Assembly (NCBI RefSeq): GCF_051903065.1
Contig: NZ_CP178438.1
DNA from: Escherichia coli
GTDB taxonomy: Bacteria; Pseudomonadota; Gammaproteobacteria; Enterobacterales; Enterobacteriaceae
DNA: 64,000 bases
Strand: one strand, 5' to 3'
Shown here: positions 2,511 to 21,480 of the stretch, in pieces
Position numbering within the stretch: position 1 is the stretch's first letter
Layout: every line of letters begins with the position of its first letter
Program-made: the position numbers and the translations under genes
The notes under the pieces: model-generated
Told to the model about the DNA's origin: nothing
Seen by the model: the letters and a program-made list of their open reading frames with translations, nothing else
The model's database searches: none

Positions 2511-4178
2511 ATGCTGAGAACTTTTACAGGACAAAATTATAAAGCATACGAAAGCTTTAAGTTAGATTTAAAGCCATTGACAATATTGTTAGGTGCAAAT
2601 AGTTGTGGAAAAAGTGCACTAATTAACTCTTTGTTGATGTTTTCTCAGACAGTTGATTCAATGTCATTGTCTGACTCTGCTCTACGGCTGAATGGACCTA
2701 AAGTGGGAATGGGGGAAGCATTAAATATTATAAAAAATAAAGATGACTCCAAAACACTTAACTTTAGCTTTGATTTTTCTGATAATAGCGTAGTTAAAAA
2801 TGGCATTGATACTCTGAGAAGAGAAACTTTAGAATCATTTGCTATGATTATGCGATTCACTATACAGACAGTAAAAAATAATGATGAGTTGGTCGCGAAG
2901 GCCAATAATTTGATAAATGAATCTTTGAATGCTATTGTTAATTTTGATGAGTTTGAGGAGGCTAAATTAAATATTATTGCTGATAAATTGTGCCAGTTGA
3001 TTATGCTTTTTAGAGATGCTGGCAATAATATTATGTTTAGCCGGGCTACCTCAGAAAACTTACGCAGATTTATATATGAATGCCCATTGAAGAGAATCAA
3101 AGATTGCCTAACTAAAGTTGTTTCTATTTCAGGAAATAAATTGTCTGCATCTAAAATAAGTTATGACTTCAGATATGATAAAAATAAAGGTGTGGTAAAG
3201 GTTTCGAGATTTGTTCTTCTAAATAAGAATGATGAAAGAATAGTTGAACTGTTACCCAAAAAGAATAATGTCGTTGTATTGTCGGATGTTATCCCTCAAG
3301 AAGTATTTAGAGGATGTAAGTCTGATATCTTAGAAATCATGAATCCTTATTCTTTGGGGCTATTCCCTGTCAATGAAGGACGTGGTTTTTATGTTTTTTT
3401 TGGAAATTCCTACAACCCTGTTGTTAACTTTTTGTCACATGTTGTTTCTCTGGGAGTATTAATGCTTTCAAAAATGTTTGATGGCGAAAATGTTAATCAT
3501 GTCAGCCCGTTGAGGGCATTTCCTCAGCGTTATTATTTATTAGATAAAACAGTCAATCATGCTCAGTTAAATTCTGCTGATGGCTCTGAGTTGGCGGAGA
3601 TTCTGAAGAAAAATACAAAAATAACAGAAAACATAAACCTTCTTCTCGCTGAATTTAACTTAGCGGTTGATATAGTTAGAGTTAATGACATAATTCATAA
3701 GATAGTTATAAACCAAGATGCTGTTAATTTAGAATTGACAGATGTAGGGTTTGGAATATCACAAGTGTTGCCTGTCTTGGTTCAAGCTTATTTGTCACCA
3801 AAGGGCTCGATTACAATAATAGAACAACCAGAAATACATTTGCATCCTAAAATGCAGGCATGGTTAACTGACGCATTAATTAAAATATCTATGCAAGAAA
3901 AGAAAATTTTTATTATTGAAACACATAGTGATGCATTAGTTAGACGGATTAGATTAAGAATTGTTGATGAATCAAGCGAACTTACTGAGGACCATGTGGC
4001 AATCTATCATCTTGAGCGAGATGAAGAGGGAACATCAACCTTACTAAATAGAGTGGCTGTGAATTCTGATGGAGATATCACATGGCCAAATGAGTTTATG
4101 GATGTTGAGATTCAGGATACAATTAGAATACAGGAATTAAAGATACAAAAAATAATGAACTCAAAGGGAGTTCATTGA
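2511..4178 (+). CDS. ABC/OLD-type (AAA_15/AAA_21-like) ATPase, cargo gene 1 of A-Q hotspot; candidate defence ATPase (AriA/AbiLi/PtuA-like)
   Basis: 555 aa; Walker A GANSCGKS near N-terminus; Walker B/D-loop-like IIEQPEIHLHP and H-loop-like ETHSD near C-terminus with ~400-aa insertion between; very AT-rich; strong RBS AGGAG upstream. Confidence 0.75.
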   Translation: MLRTFTGQNYKAYESFKLDLKPLTILLGANSCGKSALINSLLMFSQTVDSMSLSDSALRLNGPKVGMGEALNIIKNKDDSKTLNFSFDFSDNSVVKNGIDTLRRETLESFAMIMRFTIQTVKNNDELVAKANNLINESLNAIVNFDEFEEAKLNIIADKLCQLIMLFRDAGNNIMFSRATSENLRRFIYECPLKRIKDCLTKVVSISGNKLSASKISYDFRYDKNKGVVKVSRFVLLNKNDERIVELLPKKNNVVVLSDVIPQEVFRGCKSDILEIMNPYSLGLFPVNEGRGFYVFFGNSYNPVVNFLSHVVSLGVLMLSKMFDGENVNHVSPLRAFPQRYYLLDKTVNHAQLNSADGSELAEILKKNTKITENINLLLAEFNLAVDIVRVNDIIHKIVINQDAVNLELTDVGFGISQVLPVLVQAYLSPKGSITIIEQPEIHLHPKMQAWLTDALIKISMQEKKIFIIETHSDALVRRIRLRIVDESSELTEDHVAIYHLERDEEGTSTLLNRVAVNSDGDITWPNEFMDVEIQDTIRIQELKIQKIMNSKGVH

Positions 4179-4179
4179 T

Positions 4180-5181
4180 ATGCTTTGTGCTGTTTGTTTG
4201 TGTCCTGAATTTGTTGCTGCTAATATTTCTGATGTTAAAGTTTTTAGCGGTTTTTTTATTGAAACCATTGTTAATGGTGAAAATGAGTTGATTCTTGATG
4301 CTGATGGAAAAATTCGCTTAGGTTATTTAAAGTCTTGCGGAAACAACAAGGATTCTTTTTTGTTTTTTAAGAAGTGGGAGTCTGAGTTATCTAAAGCTCC
4401 TTCAGGCAAGATATTGCGTACACCAGTGCCGAATAGTTCTGAGGATATTAAGGATATAGTTGTTTGTGCAGTTGCTAATGCAGCCACTACTTTTGATAAG
4501 CATATCGTAGTGTTAGATAATAATAGTTACTCTGGATATATTGATGAATTAATCAGGCAAAGGATTAATTTGTTAAATCTTAATAGTATAAGCTTAATAT
4601 CAAAGGATGGTCGAGTGCAGCGTCCTTTGAATTTTATAAAGTTTGATAGTGATTTATCTTGGGTGCTTCAAAGATTGGGGCGTCGCTCTGCTAAAGGATA
4701 TGGTGAAGATGATTTTAATGATTTTATACGGGATATGTTATTAGCTAAGAATTATGAGGTAAAAGATCAAACTAGAGAGGGAGAGTCTCAATCTGGTAAA
4801 AGTGCGGGTGAATTAGATCTTGTTATTGAAGATAAAGGAAATCTATTTGCTATAATAGAAGCATTGATTTTAAAATCTCTAGATCAAGCTAACATATTAA
4901 AGCATTATTCAAAGCTAATTAGTAACTATAATCCTATTAATGTTAAACGCTTGTTTTTAATTGCTTATTATACTGGTGCAAAATTTGATGCTTGGTGTGA
5001 GAGATACATTGATTATCTAAAAGAGATTACTCCGGTAGATATTGGTGTAGAATCTCATGAGATAGTTGGGATTAAAGAAGTGGAGACTCCATATATAGGT
5101 TTGAGAAAAATTGAACATCATTTTAGATATGCGGGAGAACATTATTTTTGTGTTCATTATGCAGTCAAGATGGCTCGGTGA
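4180..5181 (+). CDS. Partner protein of hotspot ATPase, putative nuclease effector (PD-(D/E)xK-like or TOPRIM/DUF4435-like)
   Basis: 333 aa; ATG 1 nt after upstream TGA (translational coupling); motifs GELDLVIEDKG (D-x3-E-x-K) and IETIV..LDADG (E...DxD); AT-rich. Confidence 0.6.
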   Translation: MLCAVCLCPEFVAANISDVKVFSGFFIETIVNGENELILDADGKIRLGYLKSCGNNKDSFLFFKKWESELSKAPSGKILRTPVPNSSEDIKDIVVCAVANAATTFDKHIVVLDNNSYSGYIDELIRQRINLLNLNSISLISKDGRVQRPLNFIKFDSDLSWVLQRLGRRSAKGYGEDDFNDFIRDMLLAKNYEVKDQTREGESQSGKSAGELDLVIEDKGNLFAIIEALILKSLDQANILKHYSKLISNYNPINVKRLFLIAYYTGAKFDAWCERYIDYLKEITPVDIGVESHEIVGIKEVETPYIGLRKIEHHFRYAGEHYFCVHYAVKMAR

Positions 5182-13668: not shown

Positions 13669-13813
13669 CCCAGAGAAGAACGGCGATTTAAGTGCCGATA
13701 TCCGGCAGCTTGAGAACGCGCTGGCACACTGTGCCAGCCAGATAAAAATGATTAAACACTGTCAGGACGAAAACGATGCTCAAACCCGACAGCCTGCGCA
13801 GGGCGCTGACTGA
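13523..13813 (+). CDS. lysC: o-spanin lipoprotein LysC (Rz1-like), embedded/overlapping in lysB in +1 frame
   Basis: MKTKIFAAGTVLTCLMLCAGC: signal peptide with lipobox LCAGC; overlaps lysB 3' end in a different frame. Confidence 0.75.
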   Translation: MKTKIFAAGTVLTCLMLCAGCTSARPAPTPVIVHNACPKVSLCPMPGSDPEKNGDLSADIRQLENALAHCASQIKMIKHCQDENDAQTRQPAQGAD

Positions 13814-14243
13814 TGCCGTCACGGTGCTGAAAACCAGTCCAGAGATGCTGCGGATATTCGTGGATAACGGGAGTATTGCTTCCACACTGGCGACGTCGCT
13901 GTCATTCGAAAAGCGTTACACGCTCAATGTGATTGTGACCGACTTTACCGGTGATTTTGACCTGCTCATCGTGCCGGTGCTGGCGTGGCTGCGGGAAAAT
14001 CAGCCCGACATCATGACCACCGACGAAGGCCAGAAAAAGGGCTTCACGTTTTATGCAGACATCAACAATGACAGCAGCTTTGATATCAGTATCAGCCTGA
14101 TGCTGACCGAGCGCACGCTGGTCAGTGAGGTTGACGGTGCGCTGCATGTGAAGAATATCCCGGAACCTCCGCCGCCGGAGCCGGTCACCCGCCCGGTGGA
14201 GCTTTATATCAATGGCGAACTGGTGAGCAAGTGGGATGAATGA
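13776..14243 (+). CDS. R: Tail completion protein gpR
   Basis: 155 aa, P2 gpR size and position. Confidence 0.85.
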   Translation: MLKPDSLRRALTDAVTVLKTSPEMLRIFVDNGSIASTLATSLSFEKRYTLNVIVTDFTGDFDLLIVPVLAWLRENQPDIMTTDEGQKKGFTFYADINNDSSFDISISLMLTERTLVSEVDGALHVKNIPEPPPPEPVTRPVELYINGELVSKWDE

Positions 14244-14694
14244 GTTTAAGCGTTTTGAAGACCGGCTGACCGGACTGATTGAATCGCTGTCACCGTCAGG
14301 GCGTCGGCGACTGAGCGCCGAACTGGCGAAACGTCTGCGGCAGAGTCAGCAGCAGCGAATTAAATTACAAAAAGGCCCGGATGGTACGCCGTATGTACCG
14401 AGAAAAAACCAGCCAGTGCGAAATAAGAAAGGCCGGATAAAGCGGGAAATGTTTGTGAAATTACGCACTAACCGGTTTATGAAAGCAACAGGTAGCGAGA
14501 GTGCGGCGGTGGTGGAGTTTGCCAGCGGAGTGCAACGAATTGCGCGAGTACATCAATTAGGGCTTAAGGATAAGCCGGGGCGTAATAGTGCTGTGGTGGA
14601 ATATCCTGTTCGTGAGTTATTTGGTTTTGACAAGGAATCTATACAATTGATAGAAAGGGAGTTATTAGTGATTCTATCGAAAGATGTTATATGA
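14236..14694 (+). CDS. S: Tail completion protein gpS (3' end AT-rich, possibly chimeric)
   Basis: 152 aa; N-terminus MNEFKRFEDRLTGL P2 S-like; last ~35 codons are AT-rich and join the downstream cargo gene. Confidence 0.8.
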   Translation: MNEFKRFEDRLTGLIESLSPSGRRRLSAELAKRLRQSQQQRIKLQKGPDGTPYVPRKNQPVRNKKGRIKREMFVKLRTNRFMKATGSESAAVVEFASGVQRIARVHQLGLKDKPGRNSAVVEYPVRELFGFDKESIQLIERELLVILSKDVI

Positions 14695-15446
14695 GACGGG
14701 TGTTTATGGATGAAAAGTTTACTATTTTGAGAAAAAGAGTAAAGCACTCTCAAAAGAAAGTTATGGATTGTATTATTGCTGACCATAATGCTGATATATG
14801 TGTGTTATGCGGGAGTCCTGACGATATTACTCGTGAGCACATTATTCCTCAGTGGGCCTTTGAGTCAAATGCTGAAAAATCTTTAATTAATAAAAAGAAT
14901 AATCAGTCAACTCATTACATTAAAGCCACTGTACCAGCATGCAGAGTGTGCAATTCTGATTTGCTGGGAGTGTTTGAGTATAACCTGAAGAAATTTCTTA
15001 CGGAAAAGAGGGGAGAGGAGTTAACAGATTATGAGTATGATTGCATCATATGGTGGTTGCAATACATGGGTTTTAAGTTGCAATTAATGGATTTGCGGAA
15101 CCGCTTTCTCAGGTATAAAGGTGGTGATTATATCCCGTTCCTTGCAAACTTCCCGGTTGCAATGTTTTGGGGGAATGTCGATACGACGCCGGGGGATGTC
15201 TTCAGGATTATACGAAAATCGCGACGCAATCTGATGTCGAAATGGAAGGATAAAAAACATAATTCTTTGATGGTTTTTGAAACATCAAACAAGAGTTTTC
15301 ATTTCTTTCATAAGGTTGATGAATTTATTTTTATTGAAATGCCTCTGGTTAAGAAGGCGTTTTTCTTCTTTTTTAATAAAGAATTTGACAGCCATGATTT
15401 AGCTCATGAGGAGTGTATGAAGATTATAGAGAAGTGCTACAACTAA
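14691..15446 (+). CDS. HNH-motif nuclease-like cargo protein between S and V (P2 orf30 position); candidate defence or accessory gene
   Basis: 251 aa; CVLCGSPDDITREHIIPQW ... PACRVCNSD (CxxC...H...CxxCN His-Me finger pattern); strongly AT-rich; start may instead be ATG at 14706. Confidence 0.6.
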   Translation: MRRVFMDEKFTILRKRVKHSQKKVMDCIIADHNADICVLCGSPDDITREHIIPQWAFESNAEKSLINKKNNQSTHYIKATVPACRVCNSDLLGVFEYNLKKFLTEKRGEELTDYEYDCIIWWLQYMGFKLQLMDLRNRFLRYKGGDYIPFLANFPVAMFWGNVDTTPGDVFRIIRKSRRNLMSKWKDKKHNSLMVFETSNKSFHFFHKVDEFIFIEMPLVKKAFFFFFNKEFDSHDLAHEECMKIIEKCYN

Positions 15447-15455
15447 TATTTATTA

Positions 15456-15465
15456 TGTTGTGTCA
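15456..15465 (+). promoter_or_regulatory. Late-promoter-associated motif TGTTGTGTCA upstream of V (P_V region), part of palindrome TGTCACAGCTGACA
   Basis: ~68 bp upstream of V start; same motif as upstream of O and FI. Confidence 0.45.
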
Positions 15466-15523
15466 CAGCTGACAGAATCCTCCATGATTGCTGCTGGTAT
15501 CGTCCAGCGGCATCCTTCCCGTT

Positions 15524-16159
15524 ATGAACACTCTCGCAAATATTCAGGAACTCGCGCGCGCACTGCGCAACATGATTCGTACCGGCCTTGTCGTCGAAAC
15601 CAACCTTAAAGCCGGTCGCTGCCGTGTGCAGACCGGCGGCATGTGCACCGACTGGCTTCAGTGGCTGACCCATCGCGCCGGACGTTCGTGCACATGGTGG
15701 GCACCTTCCGTGGGGGAGCAGGTGCTGATTCTGGCCGTGGGCGGTGAACTTGACACGGCGTTTGTTCTGCCGGGGATTTATTCCGGCGATAACCCTCCGC
15801 CGTCTGCGTCGGCGGATGCCCTGCATATCCGTTTCCCTGACGGGGCGGTGATTGAGTATGAACCCGAAACCAGTGCACTTACGGTAAGCGGAATTAAAAC
15901 GGCCAGCGTGACGGCTTCTGATTCTGTTACCGCCACGGTGCCGGTGGTCATGGTGAAAGCATCAACCCGCGTCACCCTGGACACACCGGAGGTGGTCTGC
16001 ACCAACAGGCTGATTACCGGCACGCTGGAAGTGCAGAAGGGCGGGACGATGCGCGGCAACATTGAACACACCGGCGGTGAACTCTCATCAAACGGTAAGG
16101 TACTTCATACCCATAAACACCCCGGCGACAGCGGCGGCACAACAGGGGGACCTCTATGA
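15524..16159 (+). CDS. V: Baseplate spike/assembly protein gpV
   Basis: Start at MNTLANIQELARALRNM (ATG 15524) inside ORF 15488..16159. Confidence 0.88.
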   Translation: MNTLANIQELARALRNMIRTGLVVETNLKAGRCRVQTGGMCTDWLQWLTHRAGRSCTWWAPSVGEQVLILAVGGELDTAFVLPGIYSGDNPPPSASADALHIRFPDGAVIEYEPETSALTVSGIKTASVTASDSVTATVPVVMVKASTRVTLDTPEVVCTNRLITGTLEVQKGGTMRGNIEHTGGELSSNGKVLHTHKHPGDSGGTTGGPL

Positions 16160-16503
16160 CTGCGCGTTATCTCGGAATGAATCGCAGTGATGGCCTGACT
16201 GTCACTGACCTTGAGCATATCAGCCAGAGTATCGGCGATATCCTGCGCACACCGGTCGGCTCGCGGGTGATGCGTCGTGATTACGGCTCGTTGCTGGCGT
16301 CAATGATTGACCAGCCGCAGACCCCGGCGCTTGAGTTGCAGATTAAGGTCGCCTGTTACATGGCGGTGCTGAAATGGGAACCCCGCGTCACCCTGTCATC
16401 CGTCACCACTGAGCGCAGTTTTGACGGGCGAATGACGGTCACGTTAACCGGCCAGCACAACGACACCGGCCAGCCACTTTCGTTAACCATTCCTGTGAGT
16501 TGA
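16156..16503 (+). CDS. W: Baseplate protein gpW
   Basis: 115 aa, position. Confidence 0.88.
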   Translation: MTARYLGMNRSDGLTVTDLEHISQSIGDILRTPVGSRVMRRDYGSLLASMIDQPQTPALELQIKVACYMAVLKWEPRVTLSSVTTERSFDGRMTVTLTGQHNDTGQPLSLTIPVS

Positions 16504-20526: not shown

Positions 20527-21480
20527 ATGGATATACATGCAAAAAGAGTTGGCAGTCCACTTTATAAAATTATTATGTACTTAAATAAGTATGAAGAAGA
20601 TACACTGGAAGACATAAAACTTCAGTTTCTTTTAAAAAATTTAAAAACTCATTTCAAGAAACTGTTTTATATGATTACTTACATTAATAAAATTCAAAAA
20701 GATGCTGAGTTCATCAGAAAACATGATGCAACATCAATTGTCAGCATTAGTGCTATTGAGTATTGCTATTATAAAATCAGCACGATATGGGATATTGCAT
20801 ATCAGATAGCTGATAAATTAATTTTCCCAACTAAAAAAAATGGCAATAAATATGATTACCTTGAAAATCATTTCCAGCAATATGCACAGGAATTTCCAGA
20901 TTTGAATTTAAAATGGTATAAGGACTTTAATAAAATAAGAAATAAGATAGTTCATGGAGGGATAACAGTAAATCCTTATTATGTCAACGATGATAATATT
21001 AAAACAAAGATTTGTTTCCAAGCATATGACTCTGATCTAAACGATCTGATTCAACCTCATATGATGTATTCAAATAGATTCAATAACAATATTAATTTTG
21101 CTGATTACTATTTTACCTTTTATACTCATCTTCTCTATTCATATCTTTTTGATTTTTTTGATTTTGTACTTCTTGAGCTAAACAAAGATAAATCACATGA
21201 TTTAGACAATCTTATTCTTGATGATATACCGCACAAATTGTTTGGTGCTCATCATGAAACATGGTTGTTATCTGATGTTGATCAATTTATGAAAATTACA
21301 AGAGAAATGATTTCCCTACAAATAGCTGATGGTTGTTTAAATAAAATTGAGAAAATACCCTCAAGTGATATTGAACATTTTTTTAACAACTTTCCATTTT
21401 GTCTTATGACAAAGGTTAGCTCCGGAGATTGGGTATTGGTTGAGGATAAAGCGGCTGAAACAAAGTCATCGGACACTTAA
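20527..21480 (+). CDS. HEPN-motif (Rx4H) protein, Abi-like candidate, cargo in the G-FI (Z/fun) hotspot
   Basis: 317 aa; very AT-rich, Lys/Asn/Tyr/Phe-rich; motif RNKIVHGG (R-x4-H); own promoter-like elements. Confidence 0.55.
   Translation: MDIHAKRVGSPLYKIIMYLNKYEEDTLEDIKLQFLLKNLKTHFKKLFYMITYINKIQKDAEFIRKHDATSIVSISAIEYCYYKISTIWDIAYQIADKLIFPTKKNGNKYDYLENHFQQYAQEFPDLNLKWYKDFNKIRNKIVHGGITVNPYYVNDDNIKTKICFQAYDSDLNDLIQPHMMYSNRFNNNINFADYYFTFYTHLLYSYLFDFFDFVLLELNKDKSHDLDNLILDDIPHKLFGAHHETWLLSDVDQFMKITREMISLQIADGCLNKIEKIPSSDIEHFFNNFPFCLMTKVSSGDWVLVEDKAAETKSSDT

What the first reader, a model, noticed from the sequence alone, without database searches (positions are those of the whole stretch)
14560..15470. 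AT-rich HNH-motif gene between tail genes S and V, with a chimeric 3' end of S
Seen in sequence: composition drops sharply inside the last ~35 codons of S and stays AT-rich through a 251-aa ORF that ends ~10 bp before the late-promoter motif of V. The ORF has CxxC...H...CxxCN spacing (CVLCGSPDDITREH ... PACRVCNSD) consistent with an HNH/His-Me finger nuclease, plus an uncharacterised C-terminal half. Established knowledge (from memory, moderate certainty): P2 carries an AT-rich accessory orf30 at this S-V position. Inference: cargo acquired by recombination inside S; function could be defence or homing-endonuclease-like.
Basis: partly seen in the sequence, partly recalled or inferred. Interest (0 to 1): 0.7.

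Follow-up and report, generated by a model that had tools for sequence, protein, structure and literature searches.

The report
HNH-like cargo gene in P2 prophage
An AT-rich accessory gene for a predicted zinc-braced HNH-type nuclease sits between tail genes S and V of a P2-like E. coli prophage, in a swap-prone slot that elsewhere carries the known anti-phage system Pycsar, so it is a plausible but untested phage-conflict nuclease.

Summary
An ORF at 14691-15446 (251 aa; probable true start 14706, 246 aa) lies between S and V at 31-44% GC against 55-63% flanks. It carries invariant CxxC...EH...CxxCN residues.

S is chimeric, but the homology break with P2 is at about 14340, roughly 350 nt before the S stop. 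The composition break in the last 20-30 codons of S is separate, older, and present in every lineage that has the gene.

The gene is already recorded as hypothetical ORF16 of phage R18C (2019) and as phrog_10503. It is unrelated to P2 orf30, which lies on the other strand.

Homologues (54-100% aa) in more than 45 P2-like loci always sit 7-19 nt after S and about 81 nt before V. They stay AT-rich, and their phylogeny is decoupled from the flanks. dN/dS is 0.16.

In E. coli the slot is empty in most of a 60-record sample of 1668 genomes with P2-type flanks. The gene is in 78 genomes. Other occupants include Pycsar, a PDC-S59-like ATPase and a PCRF-domain protein, several sharing the same S' allele with different breakpoints.

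Best reading: swap-prone hotspot cargo encoding an uncharacterised HNH_5-like nuclease plus a novel C-terminal domain, probably for inter-phage conflict. A homing-endonuclease reading is not excluded. Function is untested.

The parts
14236..14694 (+). Tail-completion gene S (152 aa), chimeric. 14236 to about 14340 is P2-type (97-100% nt identity to P2). About 14341-14694 is a divergent S' allele (33-75% nt identity to P2 in 30-40-nt bins). The last 60-90 nt are AT-rich (GC 0.27-0.40).
   Evidence: phrog_26 tail completion, E 1.2e-44. Sliding identity to P2 and fiAA91-ss. GC bins.
14691..15446 (+). Cargo ORF 'X'. 251 aa from the first ATG, which overlaps the S stop (ATGA). The probable true start is ATG 14706 (246 aa). 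It encodes an HNH_5-like nuclease domain plus a conserved C-terminal alpha/beta domain.
   Evidence: phrog_10503 at 1-251/251, E 3.9e-178, function unknown. 98.4% identical to R18C ORF16. dN/dS 0.16 among 15 E. coli alleles.
14787..15005 (+). Predicted zinc-ribbon-braced HNH (beta-beta-alpha-metal) domain, residues about 33-105. Key codons: C37 (14799), C40 (14808), E49-H50 (14835-14840), C84 (14940), C87 (14949), N88 (14952).
   Evidence: Invariant columns. HNH_5 PF14279 matches 20 of 38 relatives at E<=0.1, best 2.4e-5. Motif-register alignments to the PDB HNH chain 4h9d and to chains named 'HNH nuclease domain-containing protein'. AF2 pLDDT 85-93 here, with strand-strand-helix order.
15027..15443 (+). 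C-terminal half, residues about 113-251: a long helix, a low-confidence linker (140-171), a four-stranded sheet with the FHFFHK motif, and a terminal helix. No solved-structure homologue was found.
15456..15475 (+). Late-promoter (Ogr-type) activator-site-like motif TGTTGTGTCACAGCTGACAG upstream of V.
   Evidence: Read from sequence. A conserved GTTGTG...ACA block sits at the same place in 12 other lineages and in the empty-slot phage fiAA91-ss. P2 has an annotated activator site at the equivalent distance from V.
15490..15513 (+). Conserved GC-rich hairpin (GCTGCTGG-N6-CCAGCGGC) 11 nt before the V start. It is a candidate end of the upstream late (O) operon transcript. X lies upstream of it.
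   Evidence: RNA fold of 15440-15535: -25.2 kcal/mol, z -2.65. Conserved in all lineages and in fiAA91-ss. A terminator role is inferred; there is no U-tract.
15524..16159 (+). Baseplate spike gene V, P2-type. This is the right flank of the slot. Homology with empty-slot phages resumes at about 15487.
   Evidence: phrog_6142, phrog_9992 and phrog_11. blastn 15487-16503 is 96.5% identical to fiAA91-ss.

Best explanation
X is an accessory ('moron') gene in the third variable slot of P2-like phages, the S-V or 'orf30' locus.

Protein. It has two domains. The first is an N-terminal HNH/His-Me-finger nuclease domain braced by a CxxC...CxxC zinc site (E49-H50 general base, N88 metal ligand). The second is a conserved C-terminal alpha/beta domain of unknown fold. 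That domain is shared with a large uncharacterised superfamily of solitary 'HNH endonuclease' genes.

Proposed mechanism (inferred). The protein is a metal-dependent DNA nuclease used in conflict between mobile elements, either prophage-encoded exclusion or defence. It would cut or nick the DNA of a competing phage. The C-terminal domain would supply target or trigger specificity.

The chimeric, AT-rich 3' end of S. This is not specific to X. It is the left flank of cargo cassettes that are swapped in this slot by homologous recombination inside S and in the V promoter region.

Shown: location, composition, conservation, mosaic junctions, purifying selection, and defence systems in the same slot.

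Inferred: nuclease activity, DNA target, defence role, and time of expression.
For: HNH residues:
- The catalytic and zinc residues are invariant across 17 family members and 38 distant relatives.
- HNH_5 is the only recurring Pfam match.
- PDB profile hits align both half-motifs in register.

Slot behaviour in E. coli:
- 1668 of 5426 genomes have P2-type flanks. In a 60-record sample spread across the ranking, 37 had the empty-slot span and 2 carried X. X is in 78 genomes.
- Other cargos are orf30-like, a 247-aa hypothetical protein, a PCRF-domain protein, a PDC-S59-like ATPase, and a full Pycsar system. For Pycsar, PycC scores E 1.2e-128 and PycTM 6.4e-29, and it sits on the + strand 15 nt after S, like X.
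- The S' allele is found in 96 genomes. Right-hand breakpoints without X lie at about 14520, 14555, 14562 and 14630.
- The left breakpoint differs between the window (about 14340) and the other carriers examined (about 14300).

Evolution of X:
- Its pairwise identities correlate at about 0 with S and at 0.13-0.46 with R, V and W. Those structural genes correlate with each other at 0.44-0.76 among the non-E. coli-type loci (0.34-0.76 over all pairs).
- dN/dS is 0.16.
- Two of four homologues found outside P2-like phages sit beside type I restriction-modification components. One match is strong (HsdM-like, E 4e-184) and one is weak (REase, E 4e-5).
- A distant superfamily member is cargo inside the conjugation-gene (ICE-type) region of a Vibrio plasmid.
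Against: - X matches no known defence model. PADLOC gives only PDC-M01B at E 0.049, and NCBIfam gives nothing.
- X itself does not reach Pfam significance for HNH_5 (E 0.39).
- No fold match to solved HNH structures was found.
- No sigma-70-like promoter lies upstream of X in the window, nor in 9 of 17 lineages at a lax threshold. The S-X gap is only 7-19 nt. X therefore looks like the last cistron of the late operon, which is not obviously expressed in a lysogen.
- Among close relatives (54% identity or more), every context examined is this one slot of P2-like phages. There are none on plasmids and one among 50,697 phage records. Typical defence genes roam between elements.
- There is no phenotype data.
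Confidence: 0.5

Rival explanations
1. X is a free-standing HNH homing endonuclease. It would be expressed with the late genes during mixed infection or induction, cut the X-less S-V allele of related P2-like phages, and be copied in by repair. That repair would co-convert part of S, and the divergent S' allele would make the carrier immune to cleavage.
For: - The site is fixed. All 45+ P2-like loci have X 7-19 nt after S and about 81 nt before V.
- There is presence/absence polymorphism against a precise empty site.
- The X phylogeny is decoupled from adjacent S (Spearman about 0).
- Left tract ends vary (about 14300 versus about 14340).
- There is no promoter of its own, and the gene is appended to a late operon, as in T4 seg/mob genes (the T4 comparison is from my own knowledge).
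- Composition is deviant.
- It is absent from plasmids.
Against: - The S' allele is not exclusive to X. It flanks Pycsar, ATPase and PCRF cargos with several breakpoints, so ordinary cassette recombination explains the chimera.
- No NUMOD, IENR1 or AP2-type DNA-binding modules were found. Instead the C-terminal domain is conserved across about 900 clusters, many of them not in phages.
- Purifying selection is strong and disrupted copies are few, unlike the usual invasion-and-decay cycle.
- Relatives occur as solitary chromosomal or plasmid-borne genes.
Confidence: 0.22
2. X is a late-operon phage function that is switched on only when the late activator is present: Ogr from P2-like phages, or delta from the P4 satellite. 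Examples would be a nuclease directed at a hijacking satellite or a heteroimmune co-infecting phage, or a host-DNA or processing nuclease in lytic growth. It would not be a constitutive lysogen defence.
For: - Same strand as S, a 7-19-nt gap, and an ATGA overlap for the longer ORF.
- No terminator-like site lies between S and X, and no conserved sigma-70 promoter.
- X lies upstream of the conserved hairpin that is the only candidate end of the O-operon transcript in empty-slot phages.
- The viable phage R18C, described by its authors as virulent/lytic, keeps the gene intact.
Against: - Pycsar occupies the same position and orientation with a 15-nt gap. By established knowledge Pycsar must be present before infection to protect, so this arrangement does not exclude expression in the lysogen.
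- Most P2-like phages lack X, so it is not needed for lytic growth.
- There are no expression data.
- The target is purely speculative.
Confidence: 0.18
3. The HNH-like motif is a structural zinc-ribbon or DNA-binding module without nuclease activity. X would then act as a regulator or binding protein, or have no current function.
For: - Matches to HNH models are weak for X itself (E 0.39).
- There is no structural match in the PDB.
- There is a 30-residue insert between the His strand and the CxxCN helix.
Against: - E49-H50 and N88 are invariant together with the four cysteines across very distant relatives. That is expected for catalysis, not only for folding.
- dN/dS of 0.16 excludes a dead gene.
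Confidence: 0.1

Closest known systems
ORF16 of bacteriophage R18C (MN016939; Svab et al. 2019, PMC6823313) and PHROG phrog_10503
   Same: It is the same gene: 98.4% aa identity, same slot between S and V, same 741-bp annotated length. It is described there as a rare moron found only in E. coli prophages.
   Different: That paper found no motif or function (PSI-BLAST gave nothing). The HNH-type residues, the wider family, the S chimera and the slot's defence cargo were not described there.
P2 orf30 and the S-V 'orf30 region' of P2-like phages (Nilsson and Haggard-Ljungquist, as cited in PMC3091744)
   Same: Same insertion slot, a known site of horizontally acquired, non-essential genes. The cargo is AT-rich.
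   Different: orf30 is on the opposite strand, follows a terminator placed right after a P2-type S, and shows no sequence similarity to X (E 0.51).
Pfam HNH_5 (PF14279) and HNH nucleases of defence systems such as PADLOC candidate PDC-M01B
   Same: CxxC...(D/E)H..P...CxxCN arrangement. It is the only recurrent Pfam hit among relatives. There are weak PDC-M01B hits for X and relatives.
   Different: X is below every family threshold. It has a roughly 30-residue insert inside the finger and a C-terminal domain that the HNH_5 model (56 positions) does not cover. It is a single gene with no ATPase partner next to it.
Free-standing HNH homing endonucleases of phages (T4 Mob proteins, I-HmuI type; from my own knowledge)
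   Same: An HNH-type gene wedged between conserved genes without disturbing them, read from the upstream operon. Presence/absence polymorphism, deviant composition, and divergent flanking sequence.
   Different: No NUMOD, IENR1 or AP2 DNA-binding modules. The flank allele is shared with unrelated cargos. The gene is long-lived and under purifying selection. No cleavage data exist.
Defence hotspots of P2-like prophages: A-Q (old/tin) and Z/fun (Rousset 2022, PMC9122126; Vassallo 2022, PMC9519451)
   Same: A variable slot between conserved phage genes that carries diverse, rapidly swapped cargo, including a validated system type (Pycsar here).
   Different: The S-V slot is not one of the hotspots analysed in those papers, in iLund4u (10.1101/2024.10.15.618418), or, by keyword search, in the 2026 preprint 10.64898/2026.02.27.708500. 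It lies inside the tail-gene block, and its cassettes overwrite the 3' end of an essential gene.

Membership tests
HNH / His-Me finger nucleases (nearest Pfam model HNH_5, PF14279) | Two CxxC pairs forming a zinc site around the finger | tested here: met
   C37, C40, C84 and C87 are invariant in 17 family members. The equivalent cysteines are invariant in 24 and 38 distant relatives.
HNH / His-Me finger nucleases (nearest Pfam model HNH_5, PF14279) | Catalytic His preceded by an acidic residue at the end of the first strand, and an Asn/His metal ligand at the start of the helix | tested here: met
   E49-H50 and N88 (in CxxCN) are invariant. The AF2 model has a strand at 46-50, a strand at 80-84 and a helix at 85-105.
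HNH / His-Me finger nucleases (nearest Pfam model HNH_5, PF14279) | Significant match to the family profile | tested here: inconclusive
   X scores E 0.39 over residues 37-54 only. Among 38 relatives, 2 reach E<=0.001 and 20 reach E<=0.1, best 2.4e-5. PDB profile search: the HNH chain 4h9d scores E 0.035 with both half-motifs in register.
HNH / His-Me finger nucleases (nearest Pfam model HNH_5, PF14279) | Beta-beta-alpha-metal fold matching solved HNH structures | tested here: inconclusive
HNH / His-Me finger nucleases (nearest Pfam model HNH_5, PF14279) | Metal-dependent nuclease activity | not testable with these tools
   This needs purified protein and H50A/N88A controls.
Morons of the P2 S-V ('orf30') slot | Lies between S and V and is absent from most relatives | tested here: met
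   The slot has the empty-slot span in 37 of 60 sampled records from 1668 E. coli genomes with P2-type flanks. X is in 78 genomes.
Morons of the P2 S-V ('orf30') slot | Homology to P2 orf30 itself | tested here: not met
   BLASTP E 0.51; opposite strand.
Known anti-phage defence systems (PADLOC-DB v2, NCBIfam) | Match to a model of a known or candidate defence protein | tested here: not met
   PADLOC gives only PDC-M01B at E 0.049, and nothing at E<=0.001. NCBIfam gives none.
Known anti-phage defence systems (PADLOC-DB v2, NCBIfam) | Sits in a locus that carries recognised defence systems in related elements | tested here: met
   Pycsar (PycTM + PycC) occupies the same slot in the same orientation in E. 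coli TUM18781. A PDC-S59-like ATPase occupies it in GB089 and 23AR0885.
Known anti-phage defence systems (PADLOC-DB v2, NCBIfam) | Protection phenotype | not testable with these tools
   Needs plaque assays.
Free-standing HNH homing endonucleases | Fixed insertion site with presence/absence polymorphism, and gene phylogeny incongruent with flanks | tested here: met
Free-standing HNH homing endonucleases | Accessory DNA-binding modules typical of the class (NUMOD, IENR1, AP2, HTH) | tested here: not met
   No such Pfam hit in X or in 24 + 38 relatives.
Free-standing HNH homing endonucleases | Flanking (immune) allele linked specifically to the endonuclease gene | tested here: not met
   S' is present in 96 genomes against 78 with X. 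It flanks Pycsar, ATPase and PCRF cargos.
Free-standing HNH homing endonucleases | Cleavage of the endonuclease-less allele and super-Mendelian inheritance | not testable with these tools
   Needs in vitro cleavage assays and phage crosses.
DUF4238 single-protein defence (Rousset 2022, pFR101) | Profile-level homology to PF14022 proteins | tested here: not met
   hhalign of the family and of its long relatives against 57 DUF4238 proteins gives probability 0.3% and 0.1%. The only hints are one Foldseek AFDB50 hit at E 1.4e-3 and one Pfam hit at E 0.039.

The most novel reading that the evidence does not exclude
X founds a new single-protein nuclease defence family, housed in a third defence hotspot of P2-like phages (S-V) that the hotspot papers checked here do not analyse. 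It is wired as the last cistron of the Ogr/delta-activated late operon and has no promoter of its own. It could therefore be a weapon that the invader switches on itself: a heteroimmune P2-like phage or a P4 satellite that transactivates the resident prophage's late genes would also induce the nuclease that attacks it.
Probability: 0.12. Interest if true: 0.8.

Novelty: new member of a known kind. Interest (0 to 1): 0.45.

Why it matters
P2-like prophages are in about a third of E. coli genomes, and two of their variable slots have already yielded many new defence systems. The evidence here shows that the long-known S-V 'orf30' slot behaves the same way. It holds Pycsar and other candidates, and its cassettes are exchanged by recombination that rewrites the end of an essential tail gene.

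X is a common, conserved and untested occupant of that slot. It is a small nuclease with a C-terminal domain that matches no solved structure, and it belongs to a superfamily of about 900 sequence clusters with no known function. A phenotype for X would assign a role to that whole superfamily. It would also justify a systematic survey of the slot.

If X turns out instead to be a homing endonuclease, it would, to my knowledge, be an unusual case in temperate P2-like phages.

Tried and rejected
1. Homology to P2 orf30: none.
2. Pfam, NCBIfam and PADLOC on X: nothing significant.
4. A link to the validated DUF4238 defence protein, suggested by one Foldseek hit: rejected by profile-profile comparison, probability 0.3%.
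5. A promoter for X inside the S tail. The consensus scan of the window found none upstream of X on the + strand. A laxer scan of 17 lineages found none in 9 of them and no positionally conserved site. A perfect TTGACA at 14627-14632 lacks a usable -10.
6. A terminator between S and X: none. The only terminator-like hit in 14200-15700 lies inside X and is at chance frequency.
7. 'Recent foreign acquisition' as the cause of AT-richness: rejected. All lineages down to 54% identity keep X at 0.33-0.38 GC against 0.53-0.61 flanks.
8. S' as an X-specific co-conversion tract: rejected, because S' is shared by other cargos.
9. Contexts of distant relatives in metagenome contigs were mostly uninformative.
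10. X relatives on plasmids and in other phages: essentially none.
11. Literature search for a described function: only the R18C note.
Full report
**What is there.** The window holds a P2-like prophage late region. Gene R is at 13776-14243, S at 14236-14694, and V runs from ATG 15524 to 16159, followed by W, J, I and H. Between S and V lies an ORF at 14691-15446 on the + strand, here called X. Its first ATG overlaps the S stop (ATGA). PGAP, the R18C annotation and every homologue start at the second ATG, 14706 (MDEKF..., 246 aa). GC in 200-nt windows is 0.31-0.445 across X, against 0.55-0.635 in the flanks. The ORF stops 10 nt before TGTTGTGTCACAGCTGACA (15456).

**The gene is already on record but has no assigned function.** X matches phrog_10503 end to end (E 3.9e-178; function unknown). 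It is 98.4% identical to ORF16 of phage R18C, the only hit among 50,697 phage records. The R18C paper describes that ORF as a 741-bp hypothetical moron between S and V that replaces P2 orf30, with no motif found (PMC6823313). P2 orf30 does sit in this slot. It lies on the opposite strand behind a terminator and is unrelated to X. The S-V region has long been listed as one of three P2 regions that take up foreign genes (PMC3091744).

**The protein.**
- Pfam, NCBIfam and PADLOC give nothing significant for X. The best hits are HNH_5 at E 0.39 and PDC-M01B at E 0.049.
- In 17 homologues at 41-98% identity, C37, C40, E49, H50, P53, W55, C84, C87 and N88 are invariant.
- An exhaustive profile search found 35 representatives at E<1e-30 (most of them full length) and 888 clusters at E<1e-3. 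Most of the latter are 300-360-aa proteins.
- A profile-profile comparison shows that these longer proteins are homologous to X over 229 columns, including the C-terminal half (probability 99.9%, E 9.5e-34).
- In 38 N-terminal domains the CxxC, EH, P.W and CxxCN residues remain invariant.
- HNH_5 is the only Pfam family that recurs among them: 20 of 38 at E<=0.1, best 2.4e-5.
- A PDB profile search aligns both half-motifs in register with the HNH chain 4h9d and with chains named 'HNH nuclease domain-containing protein', but at weak E-values.
- The AF2 model (pLDDT 76.8, pTM 0.80) has a strand at 46-50, a strand at 80-84 and a helix at 85-105, with a roughly 30-residue insert. It continues with a long helix, a poorly predicted linker (140-171), a four-stranded sheet and a terminal helix.
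- One DUF4238 protein in that AFDB50 list led me to test the validated DUF4238 defence protein of Rousset et al. hhalign rejects a relationship (probability 0.3%).
- In sum, X has the residues of a zinc-braced HNH nuclease and a novel C-terminal domain. Membership of HNH_5 is plausible but sits below thresholds.

**The chimeric S.**
- Against P2 and the empty-slot phage fiAA91-ss, the window's S is 97-100% identical up to about 14340. It then falls to 33-75% identity to the stop codon. Homology resumes at about 15487, just before V.
- The homology junction is therefore about 350 nt before the S stop, not in the last 35 codons.
- The other carriers examined (R18C and five E. coli strains) break about 40 nt earlier, at about 14300. 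At least two recombination events are therefore visible.
In all 17 lineages examined, the last two 30-nt bins of S average 0.33 and 0.25 GC, against 0.43-0.50 in P2-type S.

**Distribution and evolution.**
- X is in 78 of 5426 complete E. coli genomes, always chromosomal.
- Homologues at 55-73% identity in Klebsiella, Enterobacter, Yersinia, Kosakonia, Erwinia and Citrobacter, and in more than 45 IMG/VR P2-like contigs, all sit on the S strand. They lie 7-19 nt after the S stop and about 81 nt before V. In a few lineages an extra minus-strand gene of about 1 kb lies between X and V.
- X is 0.33-0.38 GC in every lineage, against 0.53-0.61 flanks. The AT-richness is therefore maintained rather than a sign of recent arrival.
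- Pairwise identities of R, S, V and W correlate with each other at 0.44-0.76 among the non-E. coli-type loci (0.34-0.76 over all pairs). X correlates at about 0 with S and at 0.13-0.46 with the others. X is therefore exchanged among backbones while keeping its slot.
- dN/dS among 15 E. coli alleles is 0.16. One of the carriers examined has a split copy of X.
- X has no close relatives on plasmids.

**The slot is a cassette-swapping hotspot that carries defence systems.**
- A probe made from P2-type R plus the 5' part of S, joined to V plus W, hits 1668 E. coli genomes. Of 60 records sampled evenly across the ranking, 37 have the empty-slot span and 2 carry X. In 1081 genomes the two halves of the probe are joined across a short gap. 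In the rest the gap is larger or the match is partial.
- Sampled occupants are orf30-like genes, a 247-aa hypothetical protein, a PCRF-domain protein, a 414-aa ATPase matching PADLOC candidate PDC-S59 (E 1.5e-31), and a complete Pycsar system (PycTM E 6.4e-29, PycC E 1.2e-128).
- Pycsar lies on the + strand 15 nt after an AT-rich S tail, exactly like X.
- The S' allele is in 96 genomes. Outside X carriers it ends at about 14520, 14555, 14562 or 14630, next to these other cargos.
- The chimeric S is therefore the shared left flank of exchangeable cassettes, not something specific to X.
- Papers on P2 defence hotspots deal with the A-Q and Z/fun loci, and with a locus near the cI repressor gene. 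I found no mention of S-V.

**Expression logic (inferred).**
- No sigma-70-like promoter lies upstream of X in the window, nor in 9 of 17 lineages. No positionally conserved site exists, and no terminator lies between S and X.
- The X-V spacer carries the conserved GTTGTG...ACA box and a GC-rich hairpin. Both also follow S directly in empty-slot phages.
- X therefore looks like the last cistron of the late O operon. This fits a homing endonuclease or a function that is activated late.
- Pycsar shares the arrangement, however, so it does not exclude expression in the lysogen.

**Verdict.** X is best read as hotspot cargo that encodes an uncharacterised HNH-type nuclease for conflict between mobile elements (confidence 0.5). 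A homing-endonuclease reading has confidence 0.22. A late-activated nuclease reading has confidence 0.18. A non-catalytic reading has confidence 0.10. The descriptive parts are solid; the function is untested. The finding is a new member of a known kind. It is moderately interesting, mainly because it points to an under-explored P2 slot and to a large orphan nuclease superfamily.

Noticed in passing
L090 2869-4771 (E. coli TUM18781, NZ_AP023205.1): A complete Pycsar system (PycTM + PycC) occupies the S-V slot of a P2-like prophage. It is on the + strand, 15 nt after a mosaic AT-rich S tail. I found no paper describing S-V as a defence hotspot.
   Followed up: partly
L088 2940-4184, L089 2940-4184, L013 2707-4158: Other S-V cargos in E. 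coli. One is a 414-aa ATP-binding protein matching PADLOC candidate PDC-S59 (E 1.5e-31), found in two strains. Another is a 483-aa PCRF-domain protein with a weak LmuA-like hit (E 1.3e-5). All are on the minus strand and all follow partial S' alleles.
   Followed up: partly
window 2511-5181: The old/tin (A-Q) slot of this prophage holds a 555-aa ABC-type ATPase plus an adjacent 333-aa protein with no hit. The ATPase scores NsnB E 2.3e-51, HEC-03B 5.2e-43, PDC-M55A 4.7e-41 and AriA 3.3e-28. This is a candidate two-gene defence system. It differs from the cargo in the closest X-carrying genome (L086).
   Followed up: partly
window 20527-21480: A 317-aa ORF lies in the Z/fun slot, after the tail-fibre assembly gene. 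It has no PADLOC match.
   Followed up: partly
window 15490-15513, and the same place in L002, L004, L038-L062: A GC-rich hairpin lies 10-12 nt before the V start codon. It is conserved across P2-like lineages with what look like paired changes, for example GCTGCTGG/CCAGCGGC versus GCCGCCGG/CCGGCGGC. It has no U-tract. It is absent from P2 itself. Its role (end of the O operon, part of the V promoter, or control of V translation) is open.
   Followed up: partly
window 14300-14340 versus L001, L014-L018: The window's S is P2-type across 14300-14340, where the other carriers examined already have the S' allele (15-19 differences per 100 nt). This prophage therefore has a shorter S' tract than the others.
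   Followed up: yes
L017 1647-2376 (E. coli 1504D004); L061; H108 (E. coli ES5): Occasional disrupted copies of X. The gene is split into two ORFs in L017, only partly matched in L061, and annotated as two hypothetical proteins in ES5.
   Followed up: no
L008, L050, L054, L058 (Klebsiella-type P2-like loci): An extra segment of about 1 kb lies between X and V. In L008-L010 it holds a minus-strand 216-aa gene with no PADLOC hit. In these lineages the variable point is therefore downstream of X.
   Followed up: partly
L087 7983-9083 (Vibrio pectenicida plasmid pLMG19642-1): A 366-aa member of the wider superfamily is inserted in the ICE-type conjugation-gene module of this plasmid, beside an IS3 element and umuD. 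An Abi-family gene and an integrase lie nearby.
   Followed up: no
L019 1-2298: A 255-aa full-length relative of X from a metagenome contig lies divergently next to a type I restriction-modification methyltransferase (E 4e-184). It is also near a Gp49/HigB-like gene.
   Followed up: no
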